From the IMG/VR virus record IMGVR_UViG_2703718837_000003, positions 1-15,472 of that record: DNA of 15,472 nucleotides; one strand, written 5' to 3'. Numbering within the stretch: the first letter of the stretch is position 1; each line of letters begins with the position of its first letter. Position numbers and translations under genes: made by a program. The notes beneath the pieces are model-generated. The model saw nothing but the letters and a program-made list of their open reading frames with translations. It did no database searches and was not told where the DNA came from. Positions 1,684-15,472 of this stretch are shown here, in pieces. Source of the DNA: a virus (taxonomy: Duplodnaviria; Heunggongvirae; Uroviricota; Caudoviricetes).

Positions 1684-4600
1684 TATGCAAGCCTCACAAT
1701 ATAATGCGATGTTTTTGACGGTGTTTTCCGCGTTACCAGCAGCGTTAACGGTGATGGTGTGTCCATGTGAGCCAATCGCAACCGAGTGCGTATGCGCACC
1801 AATACCTACAGTATGTGCATGTGCGCCAGAACTTGCTGCAGTACCAGACAGCGAGTGGGTATGAGCACCTGCTGACTGTGTCTGAATACGTTGATAATAC
1901 GATCTACTGGAAGAAGTCCCCGGGCTTACTTGATACTGTGAATCCTGGACATAAGTGAACCCACCGCCATCATAAAATGCTAACGCAGAACCGCCGCCTC
2001 CTGGCCAACGAATACCATTACCGTGAGTATGAGCACCGGCAGACCCCGTAGAGCCACTCAGACTGTGCGTATGCGCCCCGGTGTTATTCGTGGATTTAGT
2101 GCCGTAATCAAACGACGATGTGGTTTTCGTCCCCAAATCCGTACTGGATGCGCTGGCGCTGTGGGTATGCGATTTAATGCCATCCTGTTCCTGAGACAAT
2201 ACGGCACGACCACTGGCGGGCTTGCCCTTAATCGTCCAGCCACGCATATCAGGGATCACGCCTGACGGATAAGCGGCTGCAAGTTTCGGGTAGGCAGATT
2301 TGTCAAAAGTCTGCCCCTGCATCAGGGCATAACCAGACGGAACGGTATCTGATGGCCACGGGATTGGTGCGCCGACTGGGTAGCTTTCTGGTGGAGGATT
2401 TTTCGAGGTATAAACTTCTGCCCAGTCTTCCTCAAAACCATAGCCATCTCTTGAGGAACGGTAGAACAGACCACCATTTCTGTAATGCGCCTTCATCTGC
2501 AGGGTCCGGCAACTTCCGACTCCGGTATAGAAGTTAACCAGAATATAGCTGTCGCCAGAGCGGGTGACATTGTAAGCGCCTGATTCGGCATTCCAGGGAA
2601 CGCCACCATCCGCATCGGCATATGTATCCGTTGCCCTTCTGGCAAAAGCAGCCACATGCGCGGCGGTTAAAGTAATATCTTTGGAACCATCAAACTCAAC
2701 ACCAGAAACCAGTCTTGGCGTTTGCAGCTTTGTTGCTGTTAATGCATTACCGTTCAGACTTGCGGACAGTTTGGTTCCAATAACCAGCTCGCCGGTTGCG
2801 TTATCAATAGCAAACGGTCTTAATGTATTCCAGCCACCATAAACATCACCTTGATTGGTAAGCAGCAGGTAAGTTTTAGCGCCATCATTACGCCATAATG
2901 CACCATACTCCCCACCTATCATTCGAATCTGATTACCACCACGCGCTACAATTTCGTCTGTGGCAAAAAGTTTTTTGCACGACAAGTTATCGTTAACGAT
3001 TAACGAATGAGACTCATAAAAACCACGCCCACTCTTAAAATCAAGGATAACGTCCGCCGCGATACATTCAGTCGCTGGATTTGTTGCCCCAAACTTATAG
3101 GTCGTATCATTAACAACGAGATCAGCACCAGGTGCGGATATTGACAGGCCATCTTCGATAAACGCAAAAACAGGGAAAGCAGCGCCATCAACATAGAACA
3201 CAGAGCGCAAATCATCGCCCTTATTACTCATCATTATTGAGTGGATGGCTCGTTCATTGTTTTGATATTGCCAGAACATTCCATAAGCATAACGCCCCCT
3301 GTCAGTCCAGCCACCAGGCATAACAAATCCGTTAAACTCGCAGTTATTCATCGGATCGCCTGCGATTCGCGTTGCCGTGGTGATAATGACCCTTGATGCC
3401 AGTTCGCTTACTGAGCCAGCAGAACGCATAACAACAACAGGGTAATATTTTCCAGATGTTGCACCTGCAGGAGCGTTAACCCGCACATAACGCATACCAC
3501 GCTTATCAGCAAAGTCTGTTTTACTGACCGCGTTAATGTTGTTCAGGAAGCGTCCCTTATCGGGTATATCAGCGCCGTTCTGGTTTTTCTGCAGACGTTT
3601 CTCTGCATTGTCATAGGCTGATTTTACTGCCTTTGGCGTTGCCGCCAGCGTTTCAGACGTACTGTTGGTCGCACTGCTGAGCTGTACTATCCCCTTTTTC
3701 GTCGTACTTGCATCCTCAAGCGCCACGGCGGATGCAATATCCTCTGCCCGTTTAGCTGCTGTCTCGGCGCGCGTTGCCGCGGATTCCGCCGTACTTTTGC
3801 TCTGAGCTGCCGCCGTCGCACTGCCAGCTGCCTCTGTCGCCTTCGTGGATGCCGTCGTGGCGCTGCTCTTCGCTGCTGACGCCTGTCTGGTCGCCTCATC
3901 TTTTGAAGCAGACGCCGATGATGCCGATGACGCCGCCGAACTGGCTGACGATGCGGCAGCCGTTTTTGAGGATTCTGCGCTGGTTTCCGACGCTTTCGCG
4001 TTCGTTTCGGATGTCTTCGCTGCGGAAGCAGAACTCGCTGCTGCGCTGGCCTGTTCAGTGGCTTCGCCAGCCTTCGTTGTGGCTGTTGAAGCAGACGATG
4101 CGGCACTTTCTGCCGACTTTCCGGCAGCGGTGGCACTGGCTGAGGCCTGCCCGGCACTTGTTGACGCGGCGCTGGCAGATGATGCAGCCGCTGTTTTTGA
4201 GTCTGCTGCTGCGGAGGCACTCTGTTCCGCTGCCGTCTCAGAAGACCTGGCGTTCGTCTCGGACGTTTTTGCCGCCTTCGCGGAATTTCCTGCCGCCGTT
4301 GCCGAGGAAGCTGCGCTACTGGCGCTCGAGGATGCGTTCGTTTCTGATGATTTCGCTGCCTCTTTTGAGGCCGCCGCATCCCGGGCTGAGGTGGCAGCTT
4401 CTGACGCTTTCGTGGTCGCGGTGGATGCAGAAGTGGCTGCTGATTGTTGTGATGCTGCGGCATTCGTTTCTGACTTTTTCGCCGCACCGGCACTGGTGGC
4501 CGCCGCGCTTTTTGAGGACTCTGCAGCGGCAGCACTTTTTTCCGCTTCAGTGGCCTTTGTTGATGCCGTTCCTGCGCTGGAAGACGCTGACTGATCCGGT

Positions 4601-14355: not shown

Positions 14356-14607
14356 TTATTCTTCTGCAAAAGCTGAAAAGCCTGCTTTTATTCCGATCTC
14401 TTTCAGTGCCTGTAATGAAGTGACAAACTCACCTTCGCGCAAGATAAATCCGTCTGTCACTCGACCATCCACAAAATTAATTAACGCAGCCCCATTCTTT
14501 CGCAAACACATAATGCGGTAATGACTAACAATATTTCCATTTTCAACGCACACAGCATAGAGGCCATCTTCACAAAAAATTTTACGCAGTTCTTCGATGT
14601 TCATCAT
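14356..14607 (-). CDS. rem: Small prophage protein Rem (83 aa)
   Basis: 83-aa ORF MMNIEELRKIFCEDGLYAVC... with GGAAGGA upstream. Called Rem from its length and position between ydfU and hok in Qin; the sequence itself is not remembered, so this is a synteny call. Confidence 0.55.
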   Translation of the reverse strand: MMNIEELRKIFCEDGLYAVCVENGNIVSHYRIMCLRKNGAALINFVDGRVTDGFILREGEFVTSLQALKEIGIKAGFSAFAEE

Positions 14608-14722
14608 CAGAATCCTTCCGGATAATTAGCTCTCCCCTTTAAGGGACCATCCCTCTTATCCCTGCGCGCTACTTAAGTATTTTTGATTCTATTCCGGCAC
14701 CGTCCAGAACTTCAAACGCGTT

Positions 14723-14757
14723 GAAAATAAAAACAAAAACCCGCCGAAGCGGGTTAA
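14723..14757 (-). terminator. Rho-independent terminator downstream of hok
   Basis: Stem ACCCGC-CGAA-GCGGGT; on the minus strand it is followed by a long T-rich run. Confidence 0.6.
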
Positions 14758-14823
14758 GTGCGGGTGCGTTGAAGATGCCTGCCACATCAGAGGTGGCGAG
14801 GGATTTCTCCCTCGCCGGGTCTC

Positions 14824-14979
14824 TTACTCCTCAGGTTCGTAAGCTGTGAAGACAGCGACCTCCGTCTGGCCGGTTCGGATTCGTACCTCGCAGAGGTCTT
14901 TCCTCGTTACCAGTGCCGTCACTATGACGGTTAAACAGATGACGATCAGGGCGATTAACATCGCCTTTTGCTGCTTCAT
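14824..14979 (-). CDS. hokD: Hok-family membrane toxin (type I toxin)
   Basis: MKQQKAMLIALIVICLTVIVTALVTRKDLCEVRIRTGQTEVAVFTAYEPEE (51 aa) matches the Hok/Gef family. A perfect 9-bp hairpin (GGCGAGGGA-TTTC-TCCCTCGCC, 14794-14816) follows the stop. Confidence 0.85.
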   Translation of the reverse strand: MKQQKAMLIALIVICLTVIVTALVTRKDLCEVRIRTGQTEVAVFTAYEPEE

Positions 14980-15036
14980 AGCCTGCTTCTCCTTGCCTTT
15001 CGGCACGTAAGAGGCTAACCTACATGTGTCTAGCAT
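14824..15036 (-). CDS. Mok-like overlapping reading frame (in-frame N-terminal extension of hok)
   Basis: The 70-aa frame MLDTCRLASYVPKGKEKQAMKQQ... resembles chromosomal Mok proteins (MokC-like N-terminus, from memory). Confidence 0.45.
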   Translation of the reverse strand: MLDTCRLASYVPKGKEKQAMKQQKAMLIALIVICLTVIVTALVTRKDLCEVRIRTGQTEVAVFTAYEPEE

Positions 15037-15456
15037 GAAATTGGCCTCAGATTAATGTTAAGCGTCTTGCAGGACGCGTAATGTTAACTGGGGCTTTTCT
15101 CTATCTGCCTTTGGTGTTCATGCCCGAGGCAGATAGCCTCAAGCACCCACAGCCATTCTACTTAACTACCGTTACCTCGCCAATATGAAATCAGTCAGAA
15201 AGGCGATCCATAAGAACAATAGCAAGACAATAAATCGCCATTACAGCCGTAATAGCCAGCGCACATTTGAGAACCAGCACCACAACCTCCTGTATTGGAC
15301 GTAGACCAGTCCTGATGAATATGAGGCTGTCTCGTCAGTGATTCAATACAACTATTGGGTATAGTTTCTCTGATTTTTTCTGTGGAAATGGGGCACAACC
15401 ACTAGTCACCACCAGCACTTCTTTTAATACGCAAAGTCCGACACAAGCTAACCTTC

Positions 15457-15472
15457 TAGACTGGCCCCCTGA
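15457..15472 (+). mobile_element. Left terminal inverted repeat of IS2, truncated by the window edge
   Basis: The last 16 bp, TAGACTGGCCCCCTGA, match the remembered IS2 left end (TAGACTGGCCCCCTGAATCTCC...). Only 16 bp are visible. Confidence 0.5.

What the first reader, a model, noticed from the sequence alone, without database searches (positions are those of the whole stretch)
14700..15472. hok/mok toxin locus without relBE, with an IS2 end ~480 bp upstream
A Hok toxin with an in-frame Mok-like extension, a 3' hairpin and a terminator is present. The ~480 bp upstream contains no RelE or RelB ORF, whereas in K-12 hokD lies downstream of relBE as I recall. Instead it holds inverted-repeat structures (for example CTATCTGCC...GGCAGATAG at about 15088-15123) plausible for a hok mRNA leader and Sok target, and it ends at an IS2 terminus. 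Chromosomal hok loci in K-12 are reported to be silenced by nearby insertion sequences, so this copy may be either regulated or IS-disrupted.
Basis: partly seen in the sequence, partly recalled or inferred. Interest (0 to 1): 0.55.

Follow-up and report, generated by a model that had tools for sequence, protein, structure and literature searches.

The report
Intact prophage hok/sok toxin locus
This is an ordinary, complete copy of the well-known hok/sok toxin–antitoxin module, carried by a Qin-like prophage of E. coli, with an IS2 element inserted nearby but outside it; the only mildly new item is a small conserved membrane-peptide gene that always sits just upstream of this type of hok.

Summary
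On the minus strand, 15183..14738 holds a complete hok/mok/sok type I toxin–antitoxin locus. Hok is 100% identical to K-12 HokD. The leader matches Rfam sok (RF01794) over its full length at 118 bits. The locus has its own promoter, an antisense Sok gene, a 12-bp tac–fbi closure, a 3' stem-loop and a terminator.

No RelE or RelB homologue occurs anywhere in the window. In K-12, homology to this locus starts only 14 nt before the hok ATG, so K-12's relBE–hokD is the rearranged form and this copy is the intact one.

The intact form is common: 1516 of 5426 complete E. coli genomes carry it, against 1164 with the K-12 junction. It is 93% identical to the experimentally validated hokW–sokW of prophage Sp5.

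The last 16 nt equal the IS2 left end. IS2 lies 273 nt upstream of the hok promoter and interrupts no element, so "IS-disrupted" is not supported.

The finding is already known and of low interest.

One side observation: a rarely annotated 29–30-aa hydrophobic ORF (15283..15191) is under purifying selection. It is found almost exclusively directly upstream of hokD/hokW-type loci. Its function is unknown.

The parts
15155..15183 (-). hok promoter: -35 TTGGCG (15183-15178), 17-nt spacer, -10 TAGAAT (15160-15155)
   Evidence: Consensus scan, 9/12 matches. Conserved in related loci. It lies 6 nt upstream of the mRNA 5' end defined by Rfam model position 1.
14738..15148 (-). full-length hok (mok-hok) mRNA, 411 nt, from inferred +1 (15148) to the terminator
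   Evidence: MFE -172 kcal/mol against -125.8±5.3 for shuffles, z=-8.8. The 5' end is aligned to R1-type hok and Sp5 hokW (A3).
14974..15148 (-). hok mRNA leader / Sok target region (Rfam RF01794 'sok')
   Evidence: 118.3 bits against a gathering score of 59, E=7.8e-28, model positions 1-157 of 157.
15137..15148 (-). tac element (GGGUGCUUGAGG), the 5' partner of fbi
   Evidence: In the MFE and in the centroid, nt 1-12 pair with 14762-14774. Conserved with R1-type hok and hokW.
   Evidence: Both arms are conserved in R1-type hok.
14993..15021 (+). Sok promoter: -35 TTGCCT (14993-14998), 17-nt spacer, -10 TAACCT (15016-15021)
   Evidence: Direct reading. The hexamers were the same in the eight commonest variants of a pattern-selected set of related loci (the search pattern itself fixed most hexamer bases), while the sequence just downstream varies. 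Too weak for the consensus scan.
15028..15104 (+). Sok antisense RNA gene (~77 nt): 5' tail antisense to the mok start, hairpin 15052-15087, then a U-rich tail
   Evidence: The ends are mapped from the annotated K-12 sokC by alignment. MFE -30.5, z=-5.3.
14824..15036 (-). mok-like ORF, 70 aa, in frame with hok; GAGG Shine-Dalgarno 8 nt upstream of the ATG
   Evidence: phrog_251 'MokW-like host killing', E=7.7e-33. K-12 mokC and hokC share a stop codon, so an in-frame Mok is normal for chromosomal loci.
14824..14979 (-). hok CDS, 51 aa + stop; Shine-Dalgarno AAGGAG at 14994-14989
   Evidence: Pfam HOK_GEF E=3e-23. 100% identical to K-12 HokD.
14795..14816 (-). 3' UTR stem-loop GGCGAGGGA-GAAA-TCCCTCGCC
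   Evidence: Perfect 9-bp inverted repeat. Present in the MFE.
14762..14774 (-). fbi (fold-back inhibition) element; carries a rare C->T at 14773 that gives G·U instead of G-C
   Evidence: Pairs with tac. T allele in 1 of 171 other loci. tac:fbi duplex -18.8 against -21.5 kcal/mol.
14738..14755 (-). intrinsic terminator of hok mRNA (AACCCGCTTCGGCGGGTT followed by a T-run)
15191..15283 (-). conserved small ORF (sORF), 30 aa from GTG 15283 or more likely 29 aa from GTG 15280: M(V)LVLKCALAITAVMAIYCLAIVLMDRLSD. GGAGG Shine-Dalgarno at 15290-15286; the stop codon lies 7 nt before the hok -35.
   Evidence: It is linked to hok in 115 of 116 evaluable IMG/VR hits. dN/dS is 0.11 in frame for one informative pair. 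No family match.
15318..15346 (-). putative sORF promoter: TTGAAT (15346-15341), 17-nt spacer, CATATT (15323-15318)
   Evidence: Both hexamers are kept in phage HannyBb while the spacer and flanks diverge (A2). Only 8/12 matches to consensus, so the scan did not call it. Inferred.
15457..15472 (+). first 16 nt of the IS2 left inverted repeat; the element continues off the window, with its transposase genes pointing away from hok
   Evidence: Identical to the annotated start of K-12 IS2A. None expected by chance. Homology to uninterrupted loci ends here.

Best explanation
The interval holds a complete, autonomous hok/mok/sok type I toxin–antitoxin module. It is the hokD/hokW allele, located in the early-right (replication-to-Q) region of a Qin-like lambdoid prophage.

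Proposed mechanism, by homology to R1 hok/sok and Sp5 hokW–sokW:
1. A sigma-70 promoter (15183-15155) makes a 411-nt mok-hok mRNA.
2. The 5' tac element pairs with the 3' fbi element, locking the mRNA in a closed, untranslatable form that does not bind Sok.
3. Slow 3' trimming removes fbi and refolds the leader. This exposes the mok ribosome-binding site and the Sok target.
4. The short-lived antisense Sok RNA (15028-15104, plus strand) binds there. It blocks mok translation, and therefore the coupled hok translation, and triggers RNase III decay.
5. When Sok supply falls, as on loss of the element or on prophage induction, the stable mRNA pool is translated. The 51-aa Hok peptide then depolarises the inner membrane.

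K-12's relBE–hokD arrangement is the derived form, in which relE replaced everything upstream of the hok Shine-Dalgarno sequence. The IS2 copy is an incidental insertion in the spacer between this module and the next gene. It does not touch any hok/sok element.

Shown here: sequence identity, presence and order of every element, predicted structures, and population frequency. Inferred: transcription, processing, Sok control and toxicity of this particular copy.
For: - Toxin: Pfam HOK_GEF E=3e-23. Hok is 100% identical to K-12 HokD.
- Leader: Rfam RF01794 full-length match, 118 bits against a gathering score of 59.
- Transcription signals: hok promoter and terminator found by scan.
- mRNA structure: 12-bp tac–fbi closure in both the MFE and the centroid, z=-8.8.
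- Sok: ends mapped from annotated K-12 sokC. Strong hairpin plus U-tail, z=-5.3. The Sok -35/-10 hexamers are the same in the commonest related alleles sampled (pattern-constrained search).
- Element-by-element alignment with Sp5 hokW and R1-type hok (A3).
- 93% identity over promoter-to-fbi to VT2-Sakai/Sp5 hokW–sokW. [quoted passage not shown]
- K-12 homology begins 14 nt before the hok ATG, with relE upstream.
- No RelE/RelB in the window.
- 1516 of 5426 complete genomes carry at least 80% of 14650-15472, at up to 99.8% identity.
- Gene context rem–ydfU–ydfT(Q)–cspB–lysis matches Qin.
- IS2: 16/16 nt match, and homology to uninterrupted loci breaks at that point.
Against: - No expression or toxicity data exist for this copy.
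- The Sok -10 (TAACCT) matches the consensus too weakly for the scan to call it.
- The predicted fold of 3'-truncated mRNA did not clearly reproduce the textbook tac–ucb pairing. MFE prediction of such switches is unreliable.
- Within 14650-15459 the copy differs from the best-matching uninterrupted locus at only two positions, and both lie in regulatory elements and are rare. One is T at 15149, position -1 of the transcript (8 of 183 loci). The other is fbi C->T at 14773 (1 of 171 loci). Slightly altered regulation therefore cannot be excluded.
- Only 16 nt of IS2 are visible. Effects of IS2 on read-through transcription from upstream phage genes cannot be assessed.
Confidence: 0.85

Rival explanations
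1. IS-silenced or IS-perturbed hok: the IS2 insertion inactivates or deregulates the locus, as insertion sequences next to hokA, hokC and hokE do in K-12.
For: - An IS2 end lies 477 nt upstream of the hok ATG.
- IS2 separates the module from upstream phage early genes. It could therefore block read-through transcription from the early-right operon (inference).
- IS2 has inserted independently in the same spacer, in the same orientation, in strain DEC9B.
Against: - IS2 is 273 nt upstream of the hok -35 and 110 nt upstream of the putative sORF -35. Every hok/sok element is intact and 99.8% identical to uninterrupted loci.
- The K-12 precedent acts at the 3' end. IS186A ends 20 bp after the hokC stop and is thought to disrupt fbi (PMC3562002). 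Here fbi and the terminator are present.
- The visible IS2 end is the left end, with the transposase genes pointing away from hok. No promoter-like site reading from the IS2 junction towards hok was found.
Confidence: 0.06
2. Point-mutationally decayed locus: the two rare SNPs (position -1 of the transcript, and fbi G-C to G·U) mark a copy drifting towards inactivity or leakiness. K-12 hokB and hokD are said, from my recollection of Pedersen & Gerdes 1999 (not retrieved here), to be inactivated by mutation or rearrangement.
For: Both differences from the best-matching uninterrupted locus within 14650-15459 fall in regulatory elements and are rare: 8 of 183 and 1 of 171 loci. The tac:fbi duplex is weakened by 2.7 kcal/mol.
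Against: - G·U keeps the pair, and the MFE structure is unchanged.
- The Hok, mok and Sok sequences and both promoters are otherwise those of the common allele.
- Two SNPs in 810 nt is ordinary strain-level variation.
Confidence: 0.05
3. Three-gene cassette: the conserved hydrophobic sORF (15283..15191) is a functional partner of this hok subtype. It might be a membrane peptide that modulates Hok. Alternatively, its transcription running into the hok promoter might tune the hok/Sok balance. On this view the unit is sORF + hok/mok/sok, not hok/sok alone.
For: - The sORF motif is followed by the hok leader at a fixed distance in 115 of 116 evaluable IMG/VR hits and 3 of 3 genome hits.
- It is intact in 47 of 80 loci that were selected only by Hok.
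- A Shine-Dalgarno sequence and a start codon are kept in diverged alleles.
- Frame-specific purifying selection: 8 of 11 differences fall at third codon positions, p=0.009, dN/dS 0.11 against 0.87 and 1.49 in the other frames.
- Its stop codon lies 7 nt before the hok -35, with no convincing terminator between them.
Against: - 13 of 80 loci keep only a 3' remnant and about 20 lack it.
- The experimentally functional Sp5 hokW locus has no sORF; homology there starts at the -35. So it is dispensable for hok/sok function.
- It is absent upstream of K-12 hokC and R1-type hok.
- One locus keeps the sORF after losing hok.
- Linkage may simply reflect a shared recombination module.
- Other allele pairs give only weak dN/dS contrast.
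- No homology to any family.
Confidence: 0.15

Closest known systems
hokW–sokW of Sakai prophage 5 (VT2-Sakai / Sp5), Takada et al. 2021 (PMC8621323)
   Same: - Prophage-borne hok/mok/sok with a 51-aa Hok.
- 93% nucleotide identity from the hok -35 to fbi.
- Same tac, Sok hairpin, mok start, ucb-like box, hok Shine-Dalgarno and fbi in alignment A3.
- Same PHROG family, 'MokW-like'.
   Different: - Flanks differ. Sp5 has DUF551/orf75 upstream and no sORF, and a YgiW-like gene downstream.
- The C-terminal Hok residues and the terminator differ.
- Function was tested for hokW only.
E. coli K-12 hokD (relF) in the relB-relE-hokD operon of cryptic prophage Qin
   Same: - Hok protein 100% identical.
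- Near-identical 3' UTR (1-2 SNPs), including fbi and the terminator, and the same downstream genes rem–ydfU–ydfT.
- PGAP names the window-type gene hokD.
   Different: K-12 lacks everything upstream of the hok Shine-Dalgarno sequence: promoter, tac, Sok gene and mok start. relE ends there instead, and homology begins 14 nt before the ATG. The window copy has the full leader and no relBE.
Plasmid R1 hok/sok/mok (parB), the archetype
   Same: Same architecture and regulatory logic. tac, the tac-stem arms, the mok Shine-Dalgarno/ATG region, the ucb-like AGCCTCTTAC box and the hok Shine-Dalgarno/ATG all align. The mechanism is described in PMC9841398.
   Different: - Much lower identity than to hokW; mean column identity of the three-way alignment A3 is 73%.
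- The Sok hairpin is about 18-19 nt longer here.
- mok is in frame with hok here, whereas R1 mok is in the +1 frame (inferred from nucleotide numbering in PMC9841398).
- The element is on a prophage, not a plasmid.
K-12 hokC/mokC/sokC (gef) with IS186A
   Same: Chromosomal hok with an in-frame Mok, an annotated Sok and an adjacent insertion sequence. The leader and Sok align well with the window.
   Different: [quoted passage not shown] Here IS2 is 273 nt upstream of the promoter and removes nothing.

Membership tests
[quoted passage not shown] | ~50-aa Hok/Gef-family membrane toxin ORF | tested here: met
   Pfam PF01848 E=3e-23, 81.6 bits against a cut-off of 22. 100% identical to K-12 HokD.
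[quoted passage not shown] | Upstream overlapping mok reading frame with its own Shine-Dalgarno sequence, covering the hok translation start | tested here: met
   70-aa ORF from ATG 15036, with GAGG 8 nt upstream. phrog_251 'MokW-like', E=7.7e-33. Translational coupling itself was not tested.
[quoted passage not shown] | Conserved, structured hok mRNA leader (Sok target region) | tested here: met
   Rfam RF01794, 118.3 bits against a gathering score of 59, model positions 1-157 of 157.
[quoted passage not shown] | cis-encoded antisense Sok gene with a promoter, a 5' tail complementary to the mok start, and a terminator hairpin | tested here: met
   -35 TTGCCT / -10 TAACCT, the same in the commonest related alleles sampled. 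Ends mapped from annotated sokC. Hairpin -30.5 kcal/mol, z=-5.3. This is sequence-level evidence only.
[quoted passage not shown] | Long-range 5' tac – 3' fbi pairing that closes the full-length mRNA | tested here: met
   12 bp (15148-15137 with 14762-14774) in both the MFE and the centroid. One pair is G·U because of a rare SNP.
[quoted passage not shown] | Refolding of the 3'-processed mRNA (tac–ucb pairing) that activates translation and Sok binding | tested here: inconclusive
   A ucb-like box (TTAGCCTCTTAC, 15018-15007) is conserved with R1. However, MFE folds of truncated RNAs did not show a clear tac–ucb helix.
[quoted passage not shown] | Sok-repressible toxicity / post-segregational killing | not testable with these tools
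   Shown only for the 93%-identical hokW–sokW (PMC8621323).
IS2 (IS3 family) insertion | Terminal inverted-repeat sequence of IS2 | tested here: met
   15457-15472 equals the first 16 nt of K-12 IS2A. None expected by chance.
IS2 (IS3 family) insertion | Homology to uninterrupted target loci breaks exactly at the IS end | tested here: met
   All 30 listed matches (of 1516 genomes with at least 80% coverage) end at 15459. The alignment with SCU-102 confirms this.
IS2 (IS3 family) insertion | Transposase genes, right inverted repeat and 5-bp target duplication | not testable with these tools
   These lie beyond the window end. No complete E. coli genome or species-representative genome has this exact junction. 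A neighbouring IS2 in DEC9B shows a 5-bp duplication, CATTT.
relBE–hokD (relBEF) operon of K-12 | RelB and RelE genes immediately upstream of hokD | tested here: not met
   tblastn with RelE and RelB against the whole window finds no hit. The alignment shows unrelated sequence upstream of 14993.

The most novel reading that the evidence does not exclude
The hokD/hokW-type prophage module may really be a larger cassette. Its first gene would be the conserved 29-34-aa membrane peptide (sORF, 15283..15191). This sORF is transcribed straight into the hok promoter and is essentially never found away from hok. It might act with or on Hok/Sok, for example as a membrane partner or modulator of Hok during prophage induction, or through read-through and transcriptional interference that shifts the hok:Sok ratio. 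That would add an undescribed component to one of the best-studied type I toxin–antitoxin families.
Probability: 0.15. Interest if true: 0.5.

Novelty: already known. Interest (0 to 1): 0.15.

Why it matters
For the finding as given, it matters little. It shows that this strain carries the ancestral, complete form of hokD rather than K-12's truncated relBE-linked form, and that the IS2 next to it is a bystander. This copy is therefore a candidate active toxin–antitoxin module, which may help prophage maintenance or phage release, as shown for hokW–sokW.

The analysis also corrects a K-12-centred expectation. The relBE–hokD junction is found in fewer complete genomes (1164) than the autonomous locus (1516).

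The small conserved ORF upstream is a cheap, testable lead for people who study small membrane proteins or type I toxins.

Tried and rejected
- Source genome and IS2 junction. An exact 34-nt junction scan of genome contigs found nothing. A chimeric query of window plus K-12 IS2 against complete E. coli genomes found no genome with this junction, only IS2 at other sites in the same spacer.
- relBE. tblastn was negative.
- sORF database searches that could not run. The sORF is too short for the search for homologous proteins and the search for related loci, and its alignment is too variable. I used a degenerate DNA motif instead.
- sORF family membership. No match in Pfam, PHROGs, NCBIfam or PADLOC. 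BLASTP against Hok gave no alignment, so it is not a Hok fragment or paralogue.
- sORF in the literature. A string search for the peptide found 0 papers.
- A supposed pattern of unrelated small hydrophobic ORFs upstream of hok. I first thought several such ORFs (for example MTWPEAFTTVGIAMAVALVVYSICRWG) formed a general pattern. That peptide shares a 90%-identity cluster with 121-aa DUF551-domain proteins and is probably a fragment of one, so I dropped the idea.
- The other reading frame. The 67-aa ORF 15398..15195 overlapping the sORF is not conserved in diverged alleles, and codon-position statistics favour the sORF frame.
- The isrK hit (26.6 bits, below the gathering score of 50) is treated as a resemblance only.
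- Pedersen & Gerdes 1999 and the Fozo 2008 review could not be retrieved. Statements about them rest on my own knowledge or on PMC3562002.
Full report
**1. What is there**

The feature lies on the minus strand. ORF listing gives a 70-aa ORF at 15036..14824. Its last 51 codons (ATG 14979) read MKQQKAMLIALIVICLTVIVTALVTRKDLCEVRIRTGQTEVAVFTAYEPEE.
- It matches Pfam HOK_GEF (E=3e-23) and PHROG 251 'MokW-like host killing'.
- It is 100% identical to K-12 HokD.

Rfam's 'sok' model (RF01794) in fact models the hok leader / Sok target. It matches 15148..14974 over its full length at 118 bits, against a gathering score of 59.

A consensus scan finds two signals on the minus strand:
- a sigma-70-like promoter, TTGGCG-17-TAGAAT, at 15183..15155, just upstream of model position 1;
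- an intrinsic terminator at 14755..14738.

It forms the tac-stem hairpin of the leader.

**2. RNA anatomy**

The inferred 411-nt transcript (15148..14738) folds far better than shuffles: -172 against -125.8±5.3 kcal/mol, z=-8.8.
- In both the MFE and the centroid, nt 1-12 (tac, GGGUGCUUGAGG) pair with 14762-14774 (fbi). This is the hallmark 5'–3' closure of hok mRNAs.
- A perfect 9-bp stem-loop lies at 14816..14795.

On the plus strand there is a Sok gene.
- Promoter: -35 TTGCCT (14993-14998), 17-nt spacer, -10 TAACCT (15016-15021).
- Ends: by alignment with the annotated K-12 sokC, Sok maps to about 15028-15104.
- Structure: it folds into a long hairpin plus a U-rich tail, -30.5 kcal/mol, z=-5.3.
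- Conservation: the Sok hexamers are the same in the commonest related alleles sampled (the search pattern itself fixed most hexamer bases). The sequence just downstream, which is the Sok 5' tail and the mok N-terminus, is highly variable.

A three-way alignment with Sp5 hokW and an R1-type IncFII hok lines up tac, the tac-stem arms, the mok Shine-Dalgarno/ATG region, a ucb-like box, and the hok Shine-Dalgarno/ATG (A3).

The in-frame Mok extension is normal for chromosomal loci. K-12 mokC and hokC share a stop codon. R1's mok is in the +1 frame, as inferred from nucleotide numbering in PMC9841398.

MFE folds of 3'-truncated RNA did not clearly reproduce the tac–ucb switch. I treat that step as inferred.

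**3. relBE and K-12**

tblastn with K-12 RelE and RelB finds nothing in the window.

Aligning the window with K-12 and with an uninterrupted E. coli locus (strain SCU-102) shows the following (A1):
- K-12 is identical to the window from 14 nt upstream of the hok ATG through the terminator and beyond.
- Upstream of that point K-12 has relE, where the window and SCU-102 have the leader, Sok and the promoter.

So K-12 hokD is the truncated, rearranged form. This agrees with what I recall of Pedersen & Gerdes 1999, which I could not retrieve. The window holds the intact form.

The surrounding genes (rem, a 92-aa ORF, ydfU, ydfT/Q, then cspB and lysis genes) are those of Qin-like prophages.

The intact form is not rare.
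- 1516 of 5426 complete E. coli genomes carry at least 80% of 14650-15472, at up to 99.8% identity.
- 1164 genomes carry the K-12 relE–hokD junction.
- PGAP already annotates the gene as hokD.

Functional phages (mEp460, Tritos, Evi, HannyBb) carry the module between the replication genes and Q.

The experimentally characterised hokW–sokW of Sp5 is 93% identical from the -35 to fbi (PMC8621323). Enrichment of hok in prophages has been described (bioRxiv 10.1101/2025.08.07.668861).

**4. IS2**

15457-15472 is identical to the first 16 nt of IS2A as annotated in K-12. No such match arose in shuffles.

Homology with uninterrupted loci ends at 15459, because the first three IS2 bases, TAG, coincide with the target sequence.

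Position and orientation:
- The element is oriented with its transposase genes pointing away from hok.
- It lies 273 nt upstream of the hok -35, 173 nt upstream of the sORF start, and 110 nt upstream of the putative sORF -35.

I could not find the same junction in any complete E. coli genome or species-representative genome.

In strain DEC9B an IS2 sits 155 bp further along the same spacer. It has the same orientation and a 5-bp duplication, and the DUF4209 gene follows it. This shows what probably lies beyond the window.

Nothing belonging to hok/sok is interrupted. By contrast, K-12's IS186A ends 20 bp after the hokC stop and is thought to disrupt fbi (PMC3562002). IS2 might reduce read-through from upstream early phage transcription; that is only an inference.

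**5. Small differences of this copy**

Within 14650-15459 the window differs from SCU-102 at two positions.
- T at 15149, position -1 of the transcript, is seen in 8 of 183 loci.
- T at 14773 in fbi is seen in 1 of 171 loci.

The fbi change turns a G-C pair into G·U. It weakens the tac:fbi duplex from -21.5 to -18.8 kcal/mol without changing the predicted structure. I regard these as ordinary polymorphisms, though a small regulatory effect is possible.

**6. Side finding: a conserved small ORF**

The '~480 bp upstream' is not empty. At 15283..15191 (minus strand) there is a 30-aa ORF, M(V)LVLKCALAITAVMAIYCLAIVLMDRLSD.
- It has a GGAGG Shine-Dalgarno sequence.
- The second GTG, at 15280, is the likely start, because some alleles lack the first one.
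- Its stop codon lies 7 nt before the hok -35.

It is unannotated in RefSeq neighbours. It exists sporadically in GenBank as 'hypothetical protein' or 'membrane protein', for example OSK45992.1, EGI50483.1 and a 34-aa form, A0A0J2ETP2. It matches no Pfam, PHROG, NCBIfam or PADLOC family and shows no similarity to Hok.

Among 80 IMG/VR loci selected only by Hok:
- 47 have an intact family member, including a diverged 34-aa form, MSDDISLAMEGALAVIAVVGVYCLVVFLMDRLGN;
- 13 keep only a 3' remnant;
- the rest lack it.

A degenerate motif scan tested linkage in the other direction. The hok leader lies at a fixed distance downstream in 115 of 116 evaluable IMG/VR hits. The same holds for all 3 genome hits: E. 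albertii, E. ruysiae and a probably mis-binned 'Collinsella' MAG.

The single exception has lost hok but keeps an intact sORF. That allele differs from its nearest relative at 11 sites, 8 of them at third codon positions (p=0.009). dN/dS is 0.11 in frame, against 0.87 and 1.49 in the other frames. Other pairs give weaker contrast, 0.2-0.5.

In phage HannyBb, homology upstream of the sORF is lost except for TTGAA(T/G)-17-CATATT and the Shine-Dalgarno sequence, which suggests an own promoter.

The sORF is absent upstream of K-12 hokC, R1-type hok and Sp5 hokW. It is therefore not needed for hok/sok function. I think it is a real small membrane-protein gene (about 0.75). A functional link to hok is possible but unproven (about 0.15).

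**7. Verdict**

It is a complete, probably active hok/mok/sok module of the hokD/hokW type in a Qin-like prophage. The absence of relBE is the ancestral and common state. IS2 is adjacent, not disruptive.

This is already known biology and of low interest. The sORF is the only lead worth a follow-up experiment.

Noticed in passing
window 15191-15283 (-), putative promoter 15318-15346 (-): A conserved 29-30-aa hydrophobic ORF with a GGAGG Shine-Dalgarno sequence lies directly upstream of the hok promoter and is rarely annotated. It is linked to hokD/hokW-type loci in 115 of 116 IMG/VR hits. One informative pair shows purifying selection (dN/dS 0.11). It matches no family and no literature was found.
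   Followed up: partly
window 14734-14815 (-): The hok 3' UTR (stem-loop plus terminator) gives a sub-threshold Rfam hit to Salmonella IsrK: RF01394, 26.6 bits against a gathering score of 50, E=0.003. From my own recollection, IsrK also precedes an antiterminator-Q operon in Gifsy-1. IsrK may therefore derive from a hok 3' end, or the hit may be chance.
   Followed up: no
window 14686-14715 (-): A promoter-like site, TTGAAG-18-TAGAAT, lies immediately after the hok terminator and upstream of rem (14607..14356). It is a possible rem promoter.
   Followed up: no
window 15022-15040 (+/-); loci L006-L212: The Sok 5' tail / mok N-terminal segment is hypervariable between alleles, while the Sok -35 and -10 are the same in the commonest alleles sampled. 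This is consistent with diversification of Sok specificity in genomes that carry up to 10 hok-related copies.
   Followed up: partly
window 14773 and 15149: The only two differences from the best-matching uninterrupted locus within 14650-15459 are rare alleles in hok regulatory elements. One is in fbi, changing G-C to G·U (1 of 171 loci). The other is at position -1 of the transcript (8 of 183 loci).
   Followed up: partly
L064, L065, L071, L072, L079, L082, L085, L206 (between sORF stop and hok -35): The 34-aa sORF alleles are followed by a 22-nt palindrome (perfect in most loci; one mismatch in L085 and L206), CGATATGGGAATTCCCATATCG. The window-type allele lacks it. It could be an operator or a terminator stem.
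   Followed up: no
L089 (E. coli DEC9B) 2970-4293; H99 (A134_1EC): IS2 has inserted independently, in the same orientation, in the same hok–DUF4209 spacer, 155 bp from the window's site, with a 5-bp duplication CATTT. A second genome shows a similar split match that I did not examine. The spacer may be a local IS2 target.
   Followed up: partly
L090 (JAIHTM010000277.1, 'Collinsella sp.' MAG): A 3.3-kb contig binned as Collinsella carries this E. coli phage sORF–hok module almost unchanged. This is probably a binning or contamination error.
   Followed up: no
L091 (Escherichia albertii NBRC 107761): The same sORF and hok leader are followed by a different sequence at the hok Shine-Dalgarno/start (AAGGAGATGTATGGGT...). 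This suggests modular exchange of the toxin part behind a shared leader.
   Followed up: no
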